Sequence record: CP025907.1
DNA: 31,521 bases
Direction: 5' to 3' (one strand)
DNA from: Escherichia phage 204576
Shown here: in pieces, positions 19,201 through 29,168 of the stretch
Numbering within the stretch: the stretch's first letter is position 1
How the letters are laid out: every line of letters begins with the position of its first letter
Notes under the pieces: model-generated
Databases searched by the model: none
What the model was told of the DNA's origin: nothing
The model's input: the letters and a program-made list of their open reading frames with translations, nothing else
Translations under genes and position numbers: made by a program

Positions 19201-19642
19201 ATCGTCGTTTGATTACGGCACTAAATCCACGAATAACACCGGGGCGCATACGCACAGTCTGAGTGGCTCTACGGGGTCTGCCGGTGTTCATACTCATGGT
19301 AATGGTATTCGTTGGCCAGGAGGCGGCGGTTCTGCGTTAGCATTTTATGATGGCGGTGGGTTCACTTATGTCCAGAATTCACAGTATCAAGTAAGCCCGG
19401 GGACTTCTTCCTATAGATCGTATTATCAACGTATTCAGACACAGTCAGCAGGTGCTCATACCCACTCGCTGTCTGGTACTGCAGCAAGTTCTGGCGCACA
19501 TGCACATACTGTAGGTATTGGTGCGCATACGCACTCCGTTGCGATTGGTTCACATGGACACACCATCACCGTTAACGCTGCGGGTAACGCGGAAAACACC
19601 GTCAAAAACATCGCATTTAACTATATTGTGAGGCTTGCATAA
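16229..19642 (+). CDS. stf: Side tail fibre protein Stf (long variant, about 1137 aa)
   Basis: N-terminus [26 protein letters not shown] matches lambda Stf; Ala/Ser/Thr-rich repeat region; C-terminus with GAHTHSLSG/HxH repeats and [26 protein letters not shown] identical to the lambda Stf end. Confidence 0.9.
16600..17600 (+). repeat. Low-complexity Ala/Ser/Thr-rich coding repeats within stf
   Basis: Repeated AAKTSETNA / SASAAS motifs; generates long spurious ORFs in the other five frames. Confidence 0.8.
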
Positions 19643-20226
19643 TGGCATTCAGAATGAGTGAACAAGCACGGACCATAAAAATTTATAATCTGCTGGCCGG
19701 AACTAATGAATTTATTGGTGAAGGTGACGCATATATTCCGCCTCATACAGGTCTGCCAGCAAACAGTACCGATATTGCACCACCAGATATTCCTGCTGGC
19801 TTTGTGGCTGTTTTCAACAGTGATGAGGCATCGTGGCATCTCGTTGAAGACCATCGGGGTAAAACGGTTTATGACGTAGCGTCAGGGGACGAGTTATTTA
19901 TTTCTGAACTCGGTCCGTTACCGGAAAATGTTACCTGGTTATCGCCGGAAGGGGAGTTTCAGAAGTGGAACGGCACAGCCTGGGTGAAGGATACGGAAGC
20001 AGAAAAAATGTTCCGGATCCGGGAGGCGGAAGAAACAAAAAACAACCTGATGCAGGTAGCCAGTGAGCATATTGCGCCGCTTCAGGATGCTGCAGATCTG
20101 GAAATTGCAACGGAGGAAGAAACCTCATTGCTGGAAGCCTGGAAAAAGTATCGGGTGTTGCTGAACCGTGTTGATACATCAACTGCACCTGATATTGAGT
20201 GGCCTACGAACCCTGTCAGGGAGTAA
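19642..20226 (+). CDS. tfa: Tail fibre assembly protein Tfa
   Basis: Intact 194-aa ORF, same length as lambda Tfa; start overlaps the stf stop (TAATGG). Confidence 0.85.
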
Positions 20227-20280
20227 TCATTGGGATTATGCCGCAGCACGTCTTAAGCAAGAACGTGCTGCGGTTGGATG

Positions 20281-20937
20281 CTATTTTTTCCCTGAAGCGG
20301 AAAACATTACTACAGTACCTTGAACCTTGGTTTTAACATTCTCGAAATGCTCTGAGAGTATATGTGTTAAGCCTTCTTCGGAATCTTTTGTGTTTGAAAA
20401 GATGCCTTTCTGATTGTAAATGCGCATCAGTTTTTGACCGAAGCTATTGTGCACAACTCCATCGCCAAGAATTGTGGCTCCGTATAGAGTTCCATCGTCA
20501 GTTAAGGCCTGCGCCGCATTGCGTATTACACAGCTTTTTGTAGATATATTTCCAGGCAGGCAGTGAAGAAGGTAAAACATGGAAATGGAATCAAATTGAC
20601 CATGTAACGCCGCGGGATAAGGTTCAAAAACATCATGGCTAATTTTATGTTTAATTTTTGATTCCCCAGCCCTTGTAGATGCCGCGTTCAGGCTAGCTTC
20701 GTTCAAATCCATTAAAGATATCAGACTACTCTCAGGTACGTGAGTAAGGTAAAACCCAGTTCCAACACCAATATCCAGATGGTTGTTACCTACATGTTCC
20801 AGAAAGTGTGGAAGAAGGTGTTCCTTTGTAGGACATCCCCATGCAAGCCGATTTGATACTCCCAAAACCCACCAGTCATAAAGCTTTAGGGTAAGTGGTG
20901 TGTAAATTTTAGCCCCATCATCTGTGTTTTTTTTCAT
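20281..20937 (-). CDS. Class I SAM-dependent methyltransferase (non-DNA type), low-GC cargo gene
   Basis: Motif I DIGVGTGFY (GxGxG), acidic post-I LMDLNEASL, motif II/III region FDSISMFYLLHCLP; no DPPY/NPPY DNA-methyltransferase motif. Preferred start MKKNTDDG with a GGTGA ribosome-binding site (ORF track start 20949). Confidence 0.7.
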   Translation of the reverse strand: MKKNTDDGAKIYTPLTLKLYDWWVLGVSNRLAWGCPTKEHLLPHFLEHVGNNHLDIGVGTGFYLTHVPESSLISLMDLNEASLNAASTRAGESKIKHKISHDVFEPYPAALHGQFDSISMFYLLHCLPGNISTKSCVIRNAAQALTDDGTLYGATILGDGVVHNSFGQKLMRIYNQKGIFSNTKDSEEGLTHILSEHFENVKTKVQGTVVMFSASGKK

Positions 20938-21005
20938 TGATTTCACCATGTTATAGTTTTATTTGTGAATTAAATCAATTATGGCGATGAATTACAAGGG
21001 GTTAA

Positions 21006-21275
21006 ATGCTGCCGCAGCATAGCGATATTGAAATAGCCTGGTATGCTTCGATACAGCAGGAGCCGAATGGCTGGAAGACCGTCACCACACAGTTCTACAT
21101 CCAGGAATTCAGTGAGTATATTGCGCCACTGCAGGATGCTGTAGATCTGGAAATCGCAACGGAGGAAGAAAGATCGTTGCTGGAGGCATGGAATAAATAT
21201 CGGGTATTGTTGAATCGTGTTGATACATCAACTGCACCTGATATTGAGTGGCCTGCAAATCCTGTCAGGGAGTAA
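21006..21275 (+). pseudogene. Remnant second tfa (C-terminal part of a different tfa allele)
   Basis: C-terminal 50 aa ([52 protein letters not shown]) near-identical to the end of the tfa at 19642..20226; the N-terminal part is short and not Tfa-like. Confidence 0.65.
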
Positions 21276-21278
21276 TCA

Positions 21279-21560
21279 TTGGGATTATGCCGCAGACACG
21301 TCGTATGCAGGAACGTGCTGCGGTTAGTTTGTGAGCTTTCGATAGTGGTTGTTATTTTTGCCCTTATTTGTTCCGGAGGCCATGGTTCAATGGTCCGTCT
21401 GCCCCCTGTGGTGATGTCAGCAAAATCAGCCACTGCGCGAACCACAATAGCCCGGGAAGATGCTGAAGATCACCAGGTAAAGCTATCAGCGCAGAAACTG
21501 GAAGAACTGCTCGCATCAATGGTTAAGGATGAGGTTGATCGCAATGATGGGATTTATTGA
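21279..21560 (+). CDS. Hypothetical small protein (possibly starting at the internal Met, about 56 aa)
   Basis: ORF only; GGAGG upstream of the internal ATG; no recognisable motifs. Confidence 0.2.
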   Translation: MGLCRRHVVCRNVLRLVCELSIVVVIFALICSGGHGSMVRLPPVVMSAKSATARTTIAREDAEDHQVKLSAQKLEELLASMVKDEVDRNDGIY

Positions 21561-21699
21561 CGTCAGCGAGAGCAGAAGGAAGAACTGAATAACCTGAATG
21601 ATTTACGCTCAATCAGAGCGATGATGATTGGCAGTAATTAGCGGTCAATTTCGGTTTTTTTGGCTGTGCGCTCCCCGCCCAGCATTGCGCGTCAATTAG

Positions 21700-22050
21700 C
21701 CCCAAAAAAACGAAAAAGTTACAATCAAGTAAAAAATTCCTTCTGCAAAACTAAAAAAGATTTCAATAAAATCAGACAGTTAAAAACATAAAAAAAAGGT
21801 ACAAAAAAACATCTCAAAGTCTTGTTTTTTGCTTCAAATACAATTGGTTATTGTGTTTTTTGAAACCTACCAGTGTGGTACATGGATATCGATACCACGG
21901 CTAAGTACAAATCTGGTGTTACTACCGTAAAAGACTCGGTACGACTGGATCCGTGGGTGTTTATGTTCTCCGCAGGATATCGTTTTTAATTTTCTCTGCA
22001 AAACCTCTGCAAAACCCCTCTGCAAAACTGGTCATCAAATGACCAGTTTT
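21700..22050. other. Putative attP region with arm-type integrase-binding repeats
   Basis: AT-rich segment adjacent to the int 3' end; three tandem CTCTGCAAAAC repeats at 21994..22028 and one TCTGCAAAAC at 21742..21751; placement as in lambda attP. Confidence 0.55.
22024..22050. terminator. Palindromic hairpin overlapping the int stop codon (terminator or sib-like element)
   Basis: AAAACTGGTCAT-caa-ATGACCAGTTTT perfect inverted repeat flanked by A/T runs on both sides. Confidence 0.4.
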
Positions 22051-23165
22051 TTCCATTCCTTACCGCGTGCGTCGTTGTAAATATCGGTCATTTTTTGATT
22101 CGAATGGCCTAGCAAAATTTTGGTATCAACCCCCTGCTCTCTTAACAATCGCTCTGATAAAGATCTCTGCTCATGGAAAGAGGGAGGGGTGCCATTAGCA
22201 CGCCAGTTGTAATCCACAGAATCCCGGGCTTTTTTAAATGCAACGGTTAATGTTGCTGGCTTAACCATCCCGCCGCGCTTAGCTGTCCCTTTCGCGTGAT
22301 GGTGGTGCAATAGCCACGGACTAAGAACGCAATCGCGGCAGGATGACACCACATCATCCAGGGTGAGATTTAATTTATCGCAACGCAGAGCCAGAGGGAT
22401 GGCAATCCGGGTTCCTGTTTTTTGCTGTTCGACATGAAGATAACCATCCCGGATATCCGAAAATTGCATTTTGCAAATATCTGAAAGGCGCTGGCCTGTC
22501 ATCAGTGCCAGCAGCATACCGCGCTGTAAAAAGTAACCATCCTTTTCCGCTGCGTTATAAATCATCATCCACTCATCAAAAGTCAGTCGCTGTCTTGATA
22601 TCCGCACCTGCGGTTTTTTTGCCGATTCTGCAGGGTTAAAGCCTGGCGGGACATCGCCCGTTTGCTGAGCTTCCCGGAAAACATCGATCAGTACCTTCCT
22701 GAAAATTTGTCCCATTCTGTTATGTCCTCTGGCCTTGTACTCTTCCAGTACTGATACCACATCTTTTACGGTTATGGCATCTAACGGTCTGGTGCCAAAA
22801 CGTTCATCAAATACCCTGAGAGGGGCCGCTTTCTGTTTCAGCGTGTTGAGTTTGATCTCGCCGTTTTCATATCTTTCCTGTTGAATTTTTCTGTAATTAT
22901 TCAGAAAAATGGTAACGGTTGATGAACCGCCGGTATCACTAATAATTTTCTCCTGCAGACTGAGCATTTGTTCCATTTGCTGCCGGGCAAGACGGCTGTT
23001 CGCTTCTGCTGCAATAGTTTCTGCCAGTTTCTGGTCAATACTGCCGAGACCGTGATTTTTGCCTGTTATGGGATGCCTGTAACGCCAGTAAACTTTGTTA
23101 TTTCTTTTGTCAAAATACGGAGATAATCCCGGAACATTGGTTTTATATTTTCGCGGGCGCGCCAT
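22035..23165 (-). CDS. int: Tyrosine integrase (lambda Int family)
   Basis: Intact 376-aa ORF; C-terminal catalytic region (TFHE.RSLS.RL, LLGHSNQKMTDIYNDARGKEWKKL) parallels lambda Int (LLGHKSDTMASQYRDDRGREWDKI). Confidence 0.9.
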   Translation of the reverse strand: MARPRKYKTNVPGLSPYFDKRNNKVYWRYRHPITGKNHGLGSIDQKLAETIAAEANSRLARQQMEQMLSLQEKIISDTGGSSTVTIFLNNYRKIQQERYENGEIKLNTLKQKAAPLRVFDERFGTRPLDAITVKDVVSVLEEYKARGHNRMGQIFRKVLIDVFREAQQTGDVPPGFNPAESAKKPQVRISRQRLTFDEWMMIYNAAEKDGYFLQRGMLLALMTGQRLSDICKMQFSDIRDGYLHVEQQKTGTRIAIPLALRCDKLNLTLDDVVSSCRDCVLSPWLLHHHHAKGTAKRGGMVKPATLTVAFKKARDSVDYNWRANGTPPSFHEQRSLSERLLREQGVDTKILLGHSNQKMTDIYNDARGKEWKKLVI

Positions 23166-23391
23166 CTTCCAGTATCCTCTTCAAAGCAGGGTGATCTGTG
23201 GCGATCACCTCCGGCTTGTTTACCATTCCGACAAAGCGAGCTTGCGGATCCACTCGCCAGCGTCTTCCAACTTTTTTGGGGAGAGGAAATATCATTCCGG
23301 CTTTAGCGTATTTACTTAACGTACTCGGAGTTGGGACCGGTTCACTGAATTCCTCTTTTGCCCACTCAGTGAGCAGAATAAGTCTTGCCAT
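23143..23391 (-). CDS. xis: Excisionase (Xis-like)
   Basis: 82-aa ORF overlapping the int start by 23 nt; LTEWAK......P.P.TLSKYAKAGMIFP.PKKVGRRW resembles lambda Xis. Confidence 0.7.
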   Translation of the reverse strand: MARLILLTEWAKEEFSEPVPTPSTLSKYAKAGMIFPLPKKVGRRWRVDPQARFVGMVNKPEVIATDHPALKRILEDGAPAKI

Positions 23392-23455: not shown

Positions 23456-25926
23456 TTAAAAATCAGCCTGATTCGGGATCAGTTTTTGCCAGATAACTGA
23501 AACGTATTTTGCCTGGTAACGGGCGTCATCAAGTGCATTATGGCGCTCACCTTCGAATGGAATAGCCGTTCTGGCATCGAAGTCTATGGCTTTCCCCAGC
23601 TCAACGATTGTGCGTACATCGCGATCGTTGTAGTAACGCCACGGGCAGGGGATCCCCTGCCGTTCGTATGAACGGCGCAAAATCGTGTTGTCGAAGTTGG
23701 CTCCATTTCCCCAGACATGAACAAAAAATTCACCGGAGTTTTCGTCGATAAATTCCCGCAATTGTAACAGTGCATCATCTAACGGGATTTCATCGGTCAT
23801 AATGGCAGACTGCGCTTCACGTGATTGCTTCAGCCACCTTTTAATGACGTCACGATCAATGACTCCGCCAGCAGTTTCCAGATCGATAGTCTTACTAAAT
23901 TCCGGTCCCATATCTCCGGTTTGCGGATCGAAAAATATTGCACCTATTGAGATAATCGGGGCATCAGGATTTTTTCCCATGGTTTCAAGGTCGATCATTA
24001 GATGGTCACACGTCCTGCTGGTGGATGTGATAACGTGATGACCGTTCATCGTAATTAAGGGATCTGCCGTCTCGCCAGTTTCACTATCGCTGGCGTGATC
24101 CTGAGCGCTACCAGCATTCTCCTTGTGTGGATGTTCAGCGCCTTCCATTTCCTTCGGATCATTTTCCTGAACTTCAACCTGATTCTCTTCATCGAATGTT
24201 TCCTGGTATGTTGCGTCACCCATCACCGCGCCACAATCAGGGCAGTTGCCGCCACCGCTTTGACCGCAGGCGGTGCAGACTTTTTCCGGTTCCTGTTGCG
24301 CTACTGGCTCAGGTTGTTTCGTTTCTGGCTCGTTTTGTAACGCATTTGGGCTGTTTTGTTCCGCTTTCTGGCCGTTCTGTTCCGTTTCTTGTTGGTTCTG
24401 ATTCACTGAATCGCGGGTTTCAATCCCCTTCACCCATTTCGGATCATTCGGGTCGCTAATCCCTGCAACAAATTCACCACGTGATACAGCAAGCAACTTA
24501 TTGGCGTCAGGCTGGCTGATATTGGCTGCCTGCATAATTTTGTTTACTTCGTCAGCGGTAACTTTTACCGGCTCTGGTTGTGCGATCGTGTCAGATGCAC
24601 CAGTATTTTGTTGTGAACCTGAGTATGTACTGTTTTTGCGGGCGAAATATTCTTCTTTCGTGATTTCAGTAGCCCCGGCAGCCAGCGCCTTATCCAGACC
24701 AGAAAGTTTGTTTGCGCGACCGTATTTTTCGCCATCCTTGTCGGTGAAGAGGAAGTAGAACGGCCCTTCACGCTCTACAGATGGTTCGACTTCCACTTTG
24801 CATTCGGTTTTTTCGTTGTCCGGAATTGCCGTTTCCACTGCATCAGTTTCTGGTACTGGCGACGAGAGAGTATCAGTTGCGCTCTGATTTCTTCCTTCAT
24901 CTTCAAACACGCCCTTTGTAGTCAGGTATTCAGTAATGTATTTGTTCAGTGCCACAGGGTCTTTGTGAATGTCGATCGGACGTTCACGGACAAGGCCAAA
25001 AATAGTCTGGCGGTCGTAGCGAAGGGCATCAGGCTGTTTGCGCATTGATGCCGAGATACGCTTCCAGTCTTCGCGGTCGTTGTCGATAACTTCATTTTTT
25101 GCCCAGCGATGGATGCTGCCGTCAATGTTTCCGGCATCCACATCACCAGGCCAGAGAGCGTAGGCCAGTTCGTCATCCAGTGTTTTCCATGTCTGCTTGT
25201 ATTCGCGATGAATGGCAGCAATGACCGGGCTGATTTTTCCTGTTGAATTTTCACTGTGCTGTTGATTGGTTCTGGCGCAGGCGAGATCAACAACAGACGT
25301 GTATTTTCCGGTTTCCTTGCGTTCACCTTCGCGACGTTTTTCCAGATGCGCATCTCTGCCTGAATTTCGGGCCATTTGGCACCAGGCTTACATTTATGCT
25401 TAACCCACCCGATGGCATGCAGCTTAAGCTCCGGATACATGGCGTTAACTTCTGGCATTTTCATCAACGCTTCAACGATATGTCCGTCGAATGTTGCCAT
25501 GTCTTCCTGCAACAATTCCTGTGCGCTAATAACCATATCAACGGTGATGTTTTCACATGTGTCGAACTTAACCATGACAGCGTTCTGTACTTCAGGGGAC
25601 AGCTTGTCAAAATTGACGTTCATCGGATCGGATTCTGGTTCGACTGGAATAAAGGAAGCGGATTCCTCATCCCAGCGGTTTTCCTGCATATATTCAGCAT
25701 CCCAGGAATCGAGGGCAGGGCGGGGTATACCGGGTTTATCCTCGCAGACAAGAAATTTATAAGCGCAGTCCTGAGCAGCCGGATAATGTTCCAGGAATTG
25801 CCAGTGAAATTTTGCGCGGGCGCGACGTTCATCACCGGCTTCAATGGCAGTGGCTACAGCGACGGCACCTTCTTCCTTTATTGCCTGTTCGTCCGGAATG
25901 GCGGCGCAAATAAAGACTTTACTCAT
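23456..25926 (-). CDS. Large exonuclease-like protein: acidic N-terminal domain, Cys4 zinc ribbon, C-terminal DEDDh (DnaQ-like) 3'-5' exonuclease domain; probably one frameshift near 25250-25375
   Basis: ORFs 24946..25926 and 23456..25375 overlap in different frames and both look protein-like near the junction. C-terminus carries DEDDh motifs (IDLETMG, VWGNGANFDNTIL, HNALDDARYQA) and a central CTACG...CPDCG zinc ribbon. Confidence 0.65.
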
Positions 25927-26205
25927 TTTGTTTTAACCTCATTACAGATTTCAGGGTGAACGAATCCCTGCCATTGCTGGCATTTTTAATCCGTTGGTAT
26001 GGCGTTAATATGGCTGGCGGGTTATCCAGCCGGTATTTCGTTATTCAGGTTCAGCGATACTTTTTTAACGGGAGGCATTCACCGGGGATTTTTTGTTCGT
26101 CCCTTACCTGAATGCAGGATGACTTACTGTCATAAATTCCGGTAATCACATTTTGTGGCTCACCCGTTATAAGAAAAACGGTCATCACCAGTGCAAATGC
26201 TGAAG

Positions 26206-26394
26206 TCACTGCTGTTCTCCGATAATACCAAGTTCAAGAAGGGCAATTCTGGAAAGTATGGAATTATCATTGAGAAGATAAGGTTCATATTTTCTCATCT
26301 TAATGGCATCTTCCGTAAACTCCCGGTTACTGAGCAGAACACCAATATCAAAACAACCTTCAGACGTATTAACGTTTGGTAATAACGTTTCCAT
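26206..26394 (-). CDS. dicB: DicB-like cell-division inhibitor (62 aa)
   Basis: METLLPNVNTSEGCFDIGV...TEDAI matches my recollection of E. coli Qin DicB (MKTLLPNVNTSEGCFEIGV...); GAGGA ribosome-binding site 7 nt upstream; same length (62 aa); immediately downstream of a DicF-like sequence. Confidence 0.7.
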   Translation of the reverse strand: METLLPNVNTSEGCFDIGVLLSNREFTEDAIKMRKYEPYLLNDNSILSRIALLELGIIGEQQ

Positions 26395-26563
26395 TATCGC
26401 GTCCTCAACAATGAATTTTGTGATGCGGTGCCTGGTGCCTCCAGGTGACGTTAACCAGTTAACAATTAACGCCGGATACAGAGAATCCACCCATAACACT
26501 GTTTTTGGTTTTAACTGTTCCGCGTGCGCTCAGCCGCATTCACCACATCACAAAATTCACTTT

Positions 26564-26621
26564 AAAAAGGGCGGCAGAGCAGTCACGGAGTAAAACTGAT
26601 ACCGCCAAACGTCACCAGAAA
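26564..26621 (-). ncRNA. dicF: DicF-like small RNA with intrinsic terminator
   Basis: Minus-strand sequence UUUCUGGUGACGUUUGGCGGUAUCAGUUUUACUCCGUGACUGCUCUGCCGCCC followed by UUUUU; matches recalled 53-nt DicF (ftsZ-targeting sRNA) and sits directly upstream of dicB as in the Qin operon. Confidence 0.75.
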
Positions 26622-26961
26622 ATTGATAACAGAGGGCGTTGCAGCGGAGTTGTCACTTAAGCGTATGGTCAACCTGACAACCCGGTGTCCTCAACGGAGG
26701 AAGGAATAACCCGCCATACTTACCGCCGCGCCATTTCGCGGATTGCCACAACCGGAAGCGCACGGTCGACGAAAATTTAACGACAGGCTATCTATGAACC
26801 AGCTACCTCGCCGTGCGCTTTCGCGTTATGGTCTGACTTTTCAGGGAAATATCCTTTCAGTAAACTGTCAGTGCCGGATGCTCACCCGTGTCCGGCGCAC
26901 GCACTCCACCTCACCCGTGGAGAACTCCTTAATTACTAACCTTAGCTTTGTTGATTAGCTA

Positions 26962-27180
26962 CTAACGCGGGTATGTAATCATTCTGGCAATGCTTAATGC
27001 CGCTGCTTTTTCCAGATTGGTGATATCCTGCTCCAGAGCGGACAGATTTTCAGCCTGCTTAGCCCTGGTTTCATTGGCCCATTTCAAATCCTGCGCTGCA
27101 TTAATTTTCTGGCGCATCCACTCATAAAGTTCATCATCGGTATAGTCTGGCGCGATGATGACGGGTTCTCGTTTCTGCAT
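26962..27180 (-). CDS. YdfC-like small protein (72 aa)
   Basis: GAGGAA ribosome-binding site; 72 aa, the same length and operon position as ydfC in the Qin dicB operon; no independent sequence recall. Confidence 0.55.
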   Translation of the reverse strand: MQKREPVIIAPDYTDDELYEWMRQKINAAQDLKWANETRAKQAENLSALEQDITNLEKAAALSIARMITYPR

Positions 27181-27209
27181 ACTGATTCCTCGCGGTGCTG
27201 TTTCGCTTA

Positions 27210-27338
27210 TCAGCCGTTAGATTTTGCCGAACTGGAAAGCACCTGTTTAAATTCGTTGAAGCTGTGAGCTTCTTCGCCTTCGGCAAGGCCTTCGAAGTAT
27301 TCTTCGTAAGCCTTTTCCATGATTGTGTCAAAATCCAT
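27210..27338 (-). CDS. YdfB-like small acidic protein (42 aa)
   Basis: ATG 1 nt after the upstream stop (TGAtATG), AGGTGA ribosome-binding site; MDFDTIMEKAYEEYFEGLAEGEEAHSFNEFKQVLSSSAKSNG; length and position match ydfB of Qin. Confidence 0.45.
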   Translation of the reverse strand: MDFDTIMEKAYEEYFEGLAEGEEAHSFNEFKQVLSSSAKSNG

Positions 27339-27339
27339 A

Positions 27340-27495
27340 TCACTCACCTGAGTTTCTTTCCAGCCAGCGACGGGCACCATTTTCGGTTTGAAACGTTTTG
27401 CTTTTGGTATACGTCATCGCGGTGAACGTACCGTCCTGGTTGGGGAACACGCCACATACCAGAGATTCGCTGTTGCCAAGATCGATAGTATCCAT
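27340..27495 (-). CDS. YdfA/YdaF-like DUF1391 small protein (51 aa)
   Basis: Internal start MDTIDLGNSESLVCGVFPNQDGTFTAMTYTKSKTF with a GAGGT ribosome-binding site; 51 aa, first gene of the leftward operon as ydfA is in Qin. Confidence 0.55.
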   Translation of the reverse strand: MDTIDLGNSESLVCGVFPNQDGTFTAMTYTKSKTFQTENGARRWLERNSGE

Positions 27496-27674
27496 GCTGA
27501 CCTCATTTCCCCTTAACGCCGGGGTAGCGGAACAAAAACCTGCTGCATAGTTATTAAAGTTGAACCCTGCCGTCATGTTCTTACGCCTCGGGCTGGCTAC
27601 TTAACCCCTGACCACTGCCTGGTAACTCGAAGTATTGCCCTGCATTCTGTGGGGTGGGGAGAGGGAATGAATGA

Positions 27675-27703
27675 AGTTTAGAAAAATGAACTTTTTATGT
27701 CAA
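27675..27703 (-). promoter_or_regulatory. Candidate pL-like promoter for the leftward early operon
   Basis: Minus-strand TTGACA (27703..27698), 17-nt spacer, TAAACT (27680..27675); located between the repressor gene and the ydfA-like gene. Confidence 0.35.
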
Positions 27704-27787
27704 TGTTTTTTTATCAAAACATTTTAAGCAGGCAGCTGTTAAGCCATCACCACGATGGCATACAGTTAATCAAATAGATGAGGTCGG

Positions 27788-28425
27788 TTAAATATCTTGT
27801 TGAATTTTAAAGCATACGCCCAATATGCAAGATAGATCATCCAGCATAATTGAAGGGTAGCGAGGATTCGTGGGGACTAAAAGAATATCCGGCCCTTCTA
27901 TCTCCAGTTTACGAATGACAGGTGTTGTGGTCCCTTTGGGTAAGGCAAGGACAATATTTCCTGGTTGTACGGTTCGATCGGGATCAACAAAAACTGTTGA
28001 ACCATTTGGGATGGAAACTCCCCCACCAGATGTTGACATACTGTCACTCTCTAGAACAACTGCAAAGGTATTGGCCGGGATTTCTCCGACAAGCTGCACA
28101 CAAGAGGTTATTGAGGAATTTTTCATATAATCACTCCAGCTTGCTGCCTGCTGAAGTGATAGTAGCGGAACCGTTTTTATCGGCGGTAAAGATAGATCAA
28201 GCGAATCACTGTATTTAACTCTCCTCCATTAAGAAGCCAATTTTCGTTTACTTTCAATATTTTTGCCAGTGAACTTATGTAACGCGAGGACGGCGCTCCT
28301 CCACCGTTCATCCATTGACTTACGGAGCCTTTTGATGCGCCAGTGGCATTGACAAGGTCTTTGCCTTTCAGGTTTAGCGCATGCATACGTTGGGTTATGC
28401 GTTCAGATATTGTTTGCTTGCTCAT
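27788..28425 (-). CDS. cI-like repressor (N-terminal HTH plus C-terminal S24 LexA-type peptidase domain); one frameshift near 28180-28228
   Basis: HTH ORF 28177..28425 (LKGKDLVNATGASKGSVSQWMNG); S24 frame open from 28228 to 27788 with linker VPLLSLQQAAS, nucleophile region LESDSMS and lysine region PVIRKLE. Confidence 0.75.
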
Positions 28426-28458
28426 GTTTTGATTTTAAAACACAGATGGTTTTGTTTC

Positions 28459-28487
28459 TTGACTTTCTTTGGTTTTGATTATTAAAC
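28459..28487 (+). promoter_or_regulatory. Candidate pR-like promoter upstream of the cro-like gene
   Basis: TTGACT at 28459..28464 with a TATTAA/TTAAAC -10-like element 15-17 nt downstream; TGGTTTTG direct repeats nearby may be operator half-sites. Confidence 0.3.
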
Positions 28488-28516
28488 TTTTGGCGTTCAG
28501 TTTTATGGAGCGACTC

Positions 28517-28747
28517 ATGAAAAAATCAGAAGTATTAGGCTATTTTGGCGGAGTTGTTAAAACAGCCGCAGCTCTAGGAACGTCAAAAACCACAGTCAGC
28601 ATGTGGGGGGAAGAGGTTCCGTGGAAATGGGCGTTGCTAATTCAGGCAGTCACTGCCGGGGCGCTCAAATATGAGTTACACATACCGACGGTTGTCATTC
28701 CCGGTTCTGATCATAATCCGCCTTCTAACCAAGGGGGGGATTCATGA
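28517..28747 (+). CDS. Cro-like HTH regulator (DicC/YdaS-like, 76 aa)
   Basis: MKKSEVLGYFGGVVKTAAALGTSKTTVSMWGE HTH motif; divergent from the repressor; GGAG ribosome-binding site. Confidence 0.65.
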   Translation: MKKSEVLGYFGGVVKTAAALGTSKTTVSMWGEEVPWKWALLIQAVTAGALKYELHIPTVVIPGSDHNPPSNQGGDS

Positions 28748-29168
28748 AAATCAAGCATGAACACATCCGCATGGCGATGAATGCCTGGGCGCGTCCTGAT
28801 GGCGAAAAAGTTCCGGCAGCTGGAATAACCCAGGCTTATTTTGAGTTGGGTATGACGTTTCCTGAACTGTACGACGACAGCCATCCGGAAGCCCTGGCTC
28901 GCAATACCCAGAAAATTTTCCGCTGGATAGAGAAAGACACCCCTGATGCAGTTGAAAAATTCAGGCGTTGTTACCAGCGATCGAAAAGGCAATGCCACCT
29001 TTGCTGGTGGCCAGAATGCGCAGCCACAGTTCAGCTTATTTTCGGGAGCTGGTGGAGACGCGGGAGCGACTGGTGAGAGACGCTGATGATTTTGTCGCAG
29101 TGGCAATCGCCGGTTTCAATCAGATGAACCGTGGTGGCCCGGCAGGAAATGCTGTGGCAGTACATTGA
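28744..29168 (+). CDS. YdaT-like protein (proposed CII functional analogue); frameshift near 28970-29000
   Basis: N-terminus MKIKHEHI matches my recollection of Rac YdaT; combined length about 141 aa (YdaT is 140 aa); start overlaps the cro-like stop (ATGA). Confidence 0.5.

What the first reader, a model, noticed from the sequence alone, without database searches (positions are those of the whole stretch)
26206..27495. ydfA/ydfB/ydfC-dicF-dicB-like division-control module in the leftward early operon
The order of gene sizes on the minus strand (51 aa, 42 aa, 72 aa, a small RNA, 62 aa) reproduces the E. coli Qin prophage dicB operon as I remember it. The last ORF begins METLLPNVNTSEGCF, like DicB, which inhibits septation through MinC. 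Each small ORF has a good ribosome-binding site and tight translational coupling (TGAtATG). The module sits downstream of the candidate pL promoter and upstream of the exonuclease, suggesting expression on derepression and cell-division arrest during induction. A further short ORF candidate (about 44 codons, MTVFLITGEP...) lies between dicB and the exonuclease gene (about 26000..26140, minus strand).
Basis: partly seen in the sequence, partly recalled or inferred. Interest (0 to 1): 0.55.

Follow-up and report, generated by a model that had tools for sequence, protein, structure and literature searches.

The report
Known prophage dicBF cell-division-inhibitor operon
This stretch is an ordinary, already annotated copy of the E. 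coli prophage dicBF operon (ydfA-ydfB-ydfC-DicF sRNA-dicB-ydfD), which blocks host cell division, sitting in the early-left operon of a lambda-like prophage.

Summary
On the minus strand lie ydfA (27495..27340), ydfB (27338..27210), ydfC (27180..26962), the DicF sRNA (26621..26569), dicB (26394..26206) and, overlapping the dicB stop, a ydfD/DUF1482 gene (from 26209).

- **Order and spacing:** gene order and every intergenic distance equal those of the E. coli K-12 Qin dicBF operon.
- **DicF:** it scores 76.7 bits against Rfam RF00039 and is base-for-base identical to K-12 DicF.
- **DicB:** it passes the Pfam and NCBIfam DicB cut-offs.
- **YdfA/B/C:** they are 93-99% identical to K-12.
- **Source:** the window is a 99.7% copy, rich in single-base indels, of an ompW-integrated lambdoid prophage of ETEC strain 103605. 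RefSeq already annotates these genes there.
- **Prevalence:** parts of the module occur in 4759 of 5426 complete E. coli genomes and in isolated phages such as Tritos.

Three things differ from Qin. The immunity region is different: a 212-aa CI-like repressor with an S24 domain, and other operators. The C-terminal half of DicB is a minority allele (42% identical to K-12 over residues 37-62). The YdfD allele is divergent.

The "44-codon ORF" is ydfD. It starts at GTG 26209 and is truncated in the window by a probable homopolymer sequencing error. Verdict: already known, low interest.

The parts
27675..27703 (-). pL-like promoter of the operon (the dicBp equivalent): -35 TTGACA, 17-nt spacer, -10 TAAACT
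   Evidence: The consensus scan matches 10 of 12 positions. It is the only strong minus-strand match between the repressor gene and ydfA. Function is inferred, not shown.
27674..27722 (.). Two operator-like 20-bp palindromes: 27703..27722 ATGTTTT-N6-AAAACAT, abutting the -35, and 27674..27693 AAGTT-N10-AACTT, covering the spacer and -10
   Evidence: The same motif recurs three times at 23-bp spacing between the cI-like and cro genes (28424..28489). It differs from the Qin DicA operators TGTTAG-N6-CTAACA. Repressor binding is inferred.
27496..27668 (-). 5' leader of about 173 nt, if transcription starts about 7 nt after the -10
   Evidence: Read from the sequence. Only the last 38 nt are homologous to Qin.
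27340..27495 (-). ydfA (51 aa, DUF1391)
   Evidence: PF07151 at 92.5 bits, 48/51 identical to K-12 YdfA, phrog_751. An in-frame upstream ATG at 27576 would give 78 aa, as annotated in phage Tritos. RefSeq uses the 51-aa start.
27210..27338 (-). ydfB (42 aa)
   Evidence: 39/42 identical to K-12 YdfB, phrog_2061 E 2.5e-26. The start lies 1 nt after the ydfA stop (TGAtATG).
26962..27180 (-). ydfC (72 aa)
   Evidence: 71/72 identical to K-12 YdfC, phrog_1744 E 3e-39. Annotated as ydfC in RefSeq.
26622..26961 (-). 340-nt untranslated spacer holding the DicF precursor. In K-12 this stretch carries the RNase III site that yields the 190-nt species.
   Evidence: Same length as in K-12 and about 97-98% identical. 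The processing sites come from PMC10448788 and were not tested here.
26569..26621 (-). DicF sRNA (53 nt) with its terminator hairpin GGCGG...CCGCC, followed by TTTTT (to 26564)
   Evidence: Rfam RF00039 at 76.7 bits against a gathering score of 48, covering the full model. Identical to K-12 dicF.
26395..26568 (-). 174-nt dicF-dicB spacer, the dicB 5' UTR
   Evidence: One difference from K-12. There is a sub-threshold Rfam STnc100 match at 26362..26571 (38.7 bits, gathering score 47).
26206..26394 (-). dicB (62 aa), cell-division inhibitor, with the minority C-terminal allele
   Evidence: PF05358 at 129.5 bits and NF049927 at 111 bits against a cut-off of 100. It is 38/62 identical to K-12 DicB and 100% identical to the DicB of PPompW prophages. 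RefSeq annotates the identical product as DicB, WP_000449172.1.
26022..26209 (-). ydfD-like gene (DUF1482). The GTG start overlaps the dicB stop. The frame breaks in the window at about 26061, so the ORF as read ends at 26051.
   Evidence: PF07358 E 1.3e-14 and phrog_1092 E 1e-32 for the repaired 62-aa product. The intact 62-aa ORF is seen in L001 and L003. Adding one A restores ...LPLKKVSLNLNNEIPAG.
27788..28425 (-). cI-like repressor gene (HTH plus S24 peptidase domain), presumed repressor of the operon. It is split in the window by a 1-nt deletion at about 28209.
   Evidence: PF01381 and PF00717 match the two fragments. The ORF is an intact 212 aa in L003. It aligns with lambda CI along its length, with the Ser (SDSM) and Lys (IRKL) conserved, but has Ala-Ala where lambda has the Ala-Gly cleavage bond. 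The N-terminal 65 aa are 37% identical to DicA.
23456..25926 (-). Downstream exonuclease gene of the same leftward transcription unit, split in the window by a 1-nt deletion at about 25337
   Evidence: It is a single 823-aa 'exonuclease' CDS in RefSeq. The indel is listed.

Best explanation
This is a canonical dicBF operon (ydfA-ydfB-ydfC-dicF-dicB-ydfD). It occupies the early-left (pL) operon of a lambda-like prophage integrated at ompW in an enterotoxigenic E. coli.

**Shown here:** the identity of each part, their order and spacing, and their position between a repressor-type immunity region and the exonuclease, xis and int genes.

**Inferred from the anatomy:** in the lysogen, the CI-like repressor occupies palindromic operators that overlap the TTGACA-17-TAAACT promoter and keeps the operon silent. 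Loss of the repressor lets a polycistronic transcript run leftward.

**Taken from experiments on the K-12 Qin copy:**
- RNase III and RNase E cut the long ydfC-dicB spacer to release the 53-nt DicF. Its 3' end is its own terminator hairpin.
- DicF, with Hfq, pairs with the ribosome-binding region of ftsZ mRNA (and with xylR, pykA and manX) and lowers FtsZ synthesis.
- Transcripts that read through the DicF terminator are translated into DicB. DicB binds MinC and directs it, via ZipA, to FtsZ rings, which blocks septation. DicB also inhibits the ManYZ inner-membrane route of phage DNA entry.
- YdfD causes lysis by blocking IspG when over-produced.
- YdfA, YdfB and YdfC have no known function.

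The net effect is division arrest, and probably exclusion of superinfecting phage, whenever the prophage is derepressed.
For: - **DicF:** Rfam 76.7 bits with the full model, and identical to K-12.
- **DicB:** above the curated Pfam and NCBIfam cut-offs.
- **Other proteins:** YdfA, YdfB and YdfC are 93-99% identical to K-12. YdfD is DUF1482.
- **Layout:** spacing is identical to Qin. DNA identity to Qin is 96.6% over 27533..26283.
- **Public annotation:** RefSeq annotation of the 99.7-99.9% identical loci names ydfC and dicB. It lists the ydfA and ydfD homologues as DUF1391 and DUF1482 family proteins and ydfB as hypothetical.
- **Same layout in an isolated phage:** CI - ydfABC - DicF - dicB - ydfD - exonuclease - xis - int in phage Tritos.
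- **Control elements:** promoter and operators.
- **Mechanism:** PMC5069750, PMC6832061, PMC10448788 and PMC8835842.
Against: - Nothing in the window tests function.
- The DicB characterised experimentally is the K-12 allele. Residues 37-62 here are only 11/26 identical to it.
- Induction by the SOS response is uncertain, because the repressor has Ala-Ala where lambda CI has its Ala-Gly scissile bond.
- The in-silico DicF-ftsZ duplex is only modestly better than shuffled controls: -38.5 against -31.9 +/- 4.2 kcal/mol, with 33 of 500 shuffles as good.
- ydfD, the repressor gene and the exonuclease gene are frameshifted in the window as given.
Confidence: 0.92

Rival explanations
1. The module is a dicBF operon, but what it is selected for is protection of the lysogen or of the lytic cycle from superinfecting phages (DicB blocking ManYZ-type inner-membrane entry). 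Division arrest would be a side effect.
For: In K-12, brief induction of the operon lowers lambda-vir plating to 4%, and dicB is the gene responsible (PMC6832061). dicBF sequences are kept in 88% of complete E. coli genomes, often in several copies, despite their toxicity.
Against: This does not exclude the main explanation, since the same protein does both in K-12. Nothing in the sequence separates the two roles. The allele here has a different C-terminal half and has never been tested for either activity.
Confidence: 0.3
2. The window-type DicB has a replaced C-terminal half (residues 37-62) and binds a different partner from MinC/ZipA, so it is a DicB family member with altered function.
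For: DNA homology to Qin stops inside dicB at about codon 37. The C-terminal half is 11/26 identical against 27/36 for the N-terminal half. Two discrete C-terminal classes exist, with natural recombinants between the halves. The window class is in 572 of 5426 genomes and the K-12 class in 3694.
Against: Both classes keep the same length and the same pattern of conserved positions (E37, L40, L41, N42, I46, S48, A51). Both pass the curated DicB models. Gene context is unchanged. I know of no evidence on which DicB residues contact MinC.
Confidence: 0.1
3. The locus is a decaying relic. The frameshifts in ydfD, the repressor gene and the exonuclease gene are real, and the operon is no longer controlled or used.
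For: Three genes in and around the module are interrupted in the window as given.
Against: Against the RefSeq copy the window has 85 gap positions, mostly single bases missing from the window and often in short runs of the same base, and only 2 substitutions in 31.5 kb. That is the signature of uncorrected long-read sequencing errors, not of decay. All three genes are intact in strains 103605 and ETEC-2265. ydfA, ydfB, ydfC, dicF and dicB are intact in the window itself.
Confidence: 0.04

Closest known systems
dicBF operon (ydfABC-dicF-dicB-ydfD) of cryptic prophage Qin, E. coli K-12
   Same: Gene order, gene sizes and all intergenic distances are the same. DicF is identical. YdfA, YdfB and YdfC are 93-99% identical and the untranslated spacers about 97-99%. 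The operon sits downstream of a repressor gene and a sigma-70 promoter with overlapping operators.
   Different: The repressor is a 212-aa CI-like protein with an S24 domain, not the 135-aa DicA. The operators are ATGTTTT-N6-AAAACAT rather than TGTTAG-N6-CTAACA. The leader is about 173 nt against about 75 nt. The C-terminal half of DicB and all of YdfD are divergent alleles (42% and about 35% identical). Downstream, the exonuclease, xis and int genes are intact instead of the ydfE pseudogene and IS2.
Early-left operons of PPompW prophages and of the phages Tritos, mEp460_ev081, Evi and vB_Eco-689R5
   Same: The layout is the same: repressor - ydfABC - DicF - dicB - ydfD - exonuclease - xis - int. 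PPompW DicB is 100% identical to the window's. Tritos DNA is 96% identical over ydfA to dicB.
   Different: Tritos has a short, 139-aa CI and the K-12-like DicB C-terminal class (65% identity). The STEC PPompW prophages match only from ydfC onward.
Lambda Kil (pL operon) and Rac KilR
   Same: These are small proteins from the early-left operon of lambdoid phages that stop host division by disabling FtsZ rings after derepression. Kil is also ZipA-dependent (PMC3961180, listed; otherwise from general knowledge).
   Different: There is no sequence relationship. Kil acts on FtsZ directly rather than through MinC, and there is no companion sRNA.
Salmonella sRNA candidate STnc100 (Rfam RF02076)
   Same: The dicF-dicB spacer matches the full 206-position model at E 2.9e-6.
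   Different: The score of 38.7 is below the gathering score of 47. Here the stretch is simply the dicB 5' UTR and is about 99% identical to K-12.

Membership tests
DicF sRNA (Rfam RF00039) | Score at or above the curated gathering score, over the full covariance model including the terminator hairpin | tested here: met
   76.7 bits against 48, model positions 1-52 of 52, no non-standard pairs flagged.
DicF sRNA (Rfam RF00039) | Sequence identity with the experimentally characterised K-12 DicF | tested here: met
   53 of 53 identical.
DicF sRNA (Rfam RF00039) | Complementarity to the ftsZ ribosome-binding region | tested here: inconclusive
   RNAduplex against K-12 ftsZ -60..+30 pairs DicF with the GGAGAG/AUG region at -38.5 kcal/mol. 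However, 33 of 500 shuffles do as well. Since the sequence equals K-12 DicF, the published pairing (PMC5069750) applies.
DicF sRNA (Rfam RF00039) | [quoted passage not shown] | not testable with these tools
   The precursor region is about 97-98% identical to K-12 and of the same length. Processing was shown only in K-12.
DicB (Pfam PF05358 / NCBIfam NF049927) | Score above the curated cut-offs over the full length | tested here: met
   129.5 bits against 27 and 111 bits against 100. Both matches cover residues 1-62 of 62.
DicB (Pfam PF05358 / NCBIfam NF049927) | MinC-dependent, ZipA-targeted inhibition of septation | not testable with these tools
   This needs expression in minC and zipA backgrounds. 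There is no solved structure of any DicB. The AlphaFold model is too weak to use (pLDDT 68.7).
dicBF operon (Qin type) | Order ydfA-ydfB-ydfC-dicF-dicB-ydfD on one strand with Qin spacing | tested here: met
   Gaps of 1, 29, 340 and 174 nt and a 4-nt overlap in both.
dicBF operon (Qin type) | YdfA (DUF1391), YdfB, YdfC and YdfD (DUF1482) homologues present | tested here: met
   PF07151 and PF07358 hits. Identity to K-12 is 48/51, 39/42 and 71/72, and about 35% for YdfD. ydfD is frameshifted in the window but intact in near-identical genomes.
dicBF operon (Qin type) | Control by the DicA repressor and DicA operators | tested here: not met
   The repressor is a 212-aa CI/S24 protein, only 37% identical to DicA over 65 aa. 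The operators differ. This changes the immunity type, not the identity of the operon. Phage Tritos shows the operon behind yet another repressor.
LexA/CI-type self-cleaving repressor (Peptidase S24) | Ser-Lys dyad and an Ala-Gly scissile bond | tested here: inconclusive
   The Ser (SDSM) and Lys (IRKL) align with lambda CI S149 and K192, but the residues aligned with A111-G112 are Ala-Ala.

The most novel reading that the evidence does not exclude
The minority DicB allele carried here has a C-terminal half swapped by recombination at about codon 37. It is found in about 10% of complete E. coli genomes and in PPompW prophages. It might have a target specificity different from K-12 DicB: a partner other than MinC, or other inner-membrane transporters. 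The two DicB halves would then be exchangeable modules that diversify under phage-phage or phage-host conflict. Coupled to a possibly SOS-cleavable repressor in an apparently intact prophage, the operon would act as a true lytic-cycle host-takeover module rather than a domesticated relic.
Probability: 0.1. Interest if true: 0.35.

Novelty: already known. Interest (0 to 1): 0.1.

Why it matters
It matters little beyond correct annotation. The dicBF operon has been studied since the 1980s, and near-identical DNA (99.7-99.9%) is in RefSeq with dicB and ydfC named. RefSeq does not list dicF there, but it is annotated in K-12 and in phage Tritos.

Two modest points are worth keeping. First, the operon is now seen in isolated or inducible lambdoid phages and in an apparently complete prophage. 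This updates the 2016 remark that no phage genome carried it. Second, DicB exists as two C-terminal allele classes with recombinants, and only the K-12 class has been studied experimentally.

Tried and rejected
- **AlphaFold2 model of DicB:** built from a 31-sequence family alignment, it gave a mean pLDDT of 68.7 and pTM of 0.46, an all-helical model. That is too weak for a fold search, so none was run.
- **PDB sequence search with DicB:** no hit.
- **DicF-ftsZ duplex energy:** only marginally better than shuffles, so I do not use it as evidence.
- **Permissive Rfam scan of 25900..28600:** run to look for other RNA elements, such as antitermination elements in the leader. It returned DicF, a sub-threshold STnc100 match over the dicB 5' UTR and a chance-level hit.
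- **Fold of the 402-nt ydfC-DicF region:** z = -1.95, unremarkable.
- **Upstream ATG at 27576:** I considered whether it makes a 78-aa YdfA, as annotated in Tritos. The extension is not conserved in K-12, where homology begins only 38 nt before the 51-aa start, and the 51-aa start has the better Shine-Dalgarno sequence. I kept the 51-aa start.
- **Are the frameshifts biological?** Rejected, because of the indel-only pattern of differences.
- **Literature on YdfA/B/C function (2020 onward):** nothing beyond lists of uncharacterised genes.

Full report
**Observation.** Reading the minus strand of 25700..28300 and listing ORFs shows the following elements:

| Element | Window coordinates (minus strand) | Size |
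|---|---|---|
| ydfA-like ORF | 27495..27340 | 51 aa |
| ydfB-like ORF | 27338..27210 | 42 aa |
| ydfC-like ORF | 27180..26962 | 72 aa |
| Untranslated stretch | 26961..26395 | 567 nt |
| dicB-like ORF | 26394..26206 | 62 aa, METLLPNVNTSEGCF... |
| Further ORF from GTG overlapping the dicB stop (GTGA) | from 26209 | 52 aa as read |

Each start has a Shine-Dalgarno-like motif 5-8 nt upstream. The TGAtATG junction exists only between ydfA and ydfB, and ydfB and ydfC are 29 nt apart.

**Identity of the parts.**
- **DicF.** A scan of the whole window against Rfam places DicF (RF00039) at 26620..26569 on the minus strand. It scores 76.7 bits against a gathering score of 48, covering the whole model. 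With the preceding T, the 53 nt are identical to the annotated K-12 dicF.
- **DicB.** The 62-aa product scores 129.5 bits against Pfam DicB (cut-off 27) and 111 bits against NCBIfam NF049927 (cut-off 100).
- **YdfA and the last ORF.** The 51-aa product is DUF1391/YdfA (92.5 bits). The last ORF is DUF1482/YdfD (E 1.3e-14).
- **PHROG families.** All five proteins fall in PHROG families of phage proteins of unknown function.
- **Identity to the K-12 Qin locus (L002).** YdfA is 48/51, YdfB 39/42, YdfC 71/72 and DicB 38/62 identical, and YdfD about 35%.
- **Spacing.** The intergenic distances are the same in both: 1, 29, 340 and 174 nt, then a 4-nt overlap.
- **DNA identity.** It is 96.6% from 27533 (38 nt before ydfA) to 26283 (dicB codon 37). 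The two untranslated spacers, aligned together, show a mean column identity of 99% with K-12.

The module therefore is a dicBF operon, and it has six products, not five.

**Where it comes from and how common it is.**
- The 1.85-kb region is 99.9% identical to six enterotoxigenic E. coli chromosomes.
- The whole window is 99.7% identical to strain 103605 (NZ_CP025920.1).
- In these records RefSeq names ydfC and dicB. It lists the ydfA and ydfD homologues as DUF1391 and DUF1482 family proteins and the ydfB homologue as hypothetical. dicF is not listed there.
- Some part of the query is found in 4759 of 5426 complete E. coli genomes, with a median of 2 and up to 10 places per genome.
- It is also in 59 phage records. 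Phage Tritos has the same layout and an annotated DicF: CI - ydfA/B/C - DicF - dicB - ydfD - exonuclease VIII - xis - int.
- The prophage is of the type integrated at ompW. ompW follows int in ETEC-2265, and a partial ompW lies between tail genes and int in strain 103605. This is the PPompW class described in PMC8112680. PPompW records carry a DicB 100% identical to the window's.
- A 2016 paper noted that no phage genome then held dicB or dicF (PMC5069750). That is no longer so.

**Control region.** This is inferred from the sequence.
- Between the repressor gene and ydfA, the only strong minus-strand sigma-70 match is TTGACA-17-TAAACT at 27703..27675.
- It is bracketed by a perfect palindrome, ATGTTTT-N6-AAAACAT (27703..27722), and a second dyad over the spacer and -10 (27674..27693).
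- The same motif occurs three times, 23 bp apart, between the repressor and cro genes (28424..28489). This is the classical lambdoid OL/OR arrangement.
- The Qin operators (TGTTAG-N6-CTAACA) and promoter differ, so the prophage is heteroimmune to Qin.
- The repressor is split in the window. In strain 103605 it is an intact 212-aa protein with an HTH domain 37% identical to DicA and an S24 domain.
- Aligned with lambda CI, the repressor keeps the Ser and Lys of the catalytic dyad but has Ala-Ala where lambda has the Ala-Gly scissile bond.
- DicA of Qin is short and not SOS-responsive (PMC10448788). Whether this repressor is SOS-cleavable is therefore plausible but open.

**Differences inside the module.** Homology to Qin ends inside dicB.
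- Residues 1-36 are 27/36 identical to K-12 and residues 37-62 only 11/26.
- A family search returned 141 cluster representatives, those listed all carrying PF05358. Most are from E. coli, with a few from Salmonella, Citrobacter and E. albertii.
- Aligned, they fall into two C-terminal classes: ...YEPYLLNDNSILSRIALLELGIIGEQQ, as here, and ...QERELLNKICIVSMLARLRLMPKGCAQ, as in K-12.
- Natural recombinants exist between N-terminal and C-terminal types. A shared set of conserved positions runs through both classes: E37, L40, L41, N42, I46, S48 and A51.
- At the DNA level the window class is in 572 of 5426 complete genomes and the K-12 class in 3694.
- Both classes are called DicB by the curated models. 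As far as I could find, only the K-12 class has been tested experimentally.

**How it most likely works.**
- *Shown here:* the parts, their order and their position.
- *Inferred:* repression by the CI-like protein at the operators, and leftward transcription on derepression.
- *From K-12 experiments:*
  - The polycistronic transcript is cut by RNase III (190-nt species) and RNase E (53-nt DicF) (PMC10448788).
  - DicF represses ftsZ, xylR and pykA (PMC5069750).
  - DicB stops division through MinC and ZipA, and protects against lambda by inhibiting inner-membrane receptor proteins (PMC6832061).
  - YdfD is a lysis protein that blocks IspG (PMC8835842).
  - YdfA, YdfB and YdfC remain uncharacterised.

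**Data quality.** Against strain 103605 the window has 85 gap positions and 2 substitutions in 31.5 kb. Most of the gaps are single bases missing from the window, often in short runs of the same base. Four fall in or near the module:
- 26061, in the A7 run of ydfD;
- 26710, in the ydfC-dicF spacer;
- 28209, in the repressor gene;
- 25337, in the exonuclease gene.

These are most simply sequencing errors. The 52-aa ydfD ORF, the split repressor gene and the split exonuclease gene should not be read as biology.

**What led nowhere.**
- The AlphaFold model of DicB had a pLDDT of 68.7.
- No solved DicB relative exists in the PDB.
- The DicF-ftsZ duplex energy was barely better than shuffles.
- The permissive Rfam scan found only a sub-threshold STnc100 match over the dicB 5' UTR.
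- The fold of the precursor region was unremarkable.

**Verdict.** The feature is already known and annotated. Interest is low.

Noticed in passing
whole window, for example 25337, 26061, 26710 and 28209: The window differs from E. coli strain 103605 (NZ_CP025920.1) by 85 gap positions and only 2 substitutions in 31.5 kb. Most gaps are single bases missing from the window, often in short runs of the same base. This looks like an uncorrected long-read assembly. Many ORFs, including the tail genes, exonuclease, repressor and ydfD, are artificially split.
   Followed up: yes
window 27788..28425 (-): The CI-like repressor (212 aa when intact) has a conserved Ser/Lys dyad but Ala-Ala where lambda CI has its Ala-Gly self-cleavage bond. 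RefSeq annotates only the C-terminal 112 aa ('LexA family protein'), although the full ORF is open in strains 103605 and ETEC-2265.
   Followed up: partly
window 27674..27722 and 28424..28489: There are five operator-like 20-bp dyads (consensus ATGTTTT-N6-AAAACAT). Two lie at the leftward promoter, and three lie 23 bp apart between the cI-like and cro genes. They differ from the Qin DicA operators.
   Followed up: partly
window about 19600..23200: The tail-fibre and tail-fibre-assembly genes are followed by a methyltransferase gene, tail-fibre fragments, a partial ompW and then int. This means two lambdoid prophages sit in tandem at ompW, or a tandem duplication, as in strain 103605.
   Followed up: partly
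window 19985..20183 (+): A full-length Rfam IS009 match (223.8 bits against a gathering score of 117) lies inside the tail-fibre assembly gene (19642..20226).
   Followed up: no
window 26362..26571 (-): A sub-threshold match to the Salmonella sRNA candidate STnc100 (38.7 bits against a gathering score of 47, E 2.9e-6) covers the dicF-dicB spacer and the first codons of dicB. STnc100 may simply be the dicB 5' UTR of Salmonella prophages.
   Followed up: no
window 26206..26290 (-), DicB residues 37-62: DicB comes in two C-terminal allele classes, with natural recombinants between N-terminal and C-terminal types. The window class is the minority: 572 against 3694 of 5426 complete E. coli genomes.
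   Followed up: yes
window 28518..28747 (+) and 28744..29076 (+): A P22-Cro-like gene (PF14549) is followed by a YdaT-family gene. One window-versus-RefSeq indel falls in each: an extra G at the end of the cro gene (about 28733) and a missing A in the YdaT-family gene (about 28955). Both change the reading frames seen in the window.
   Followed up: no
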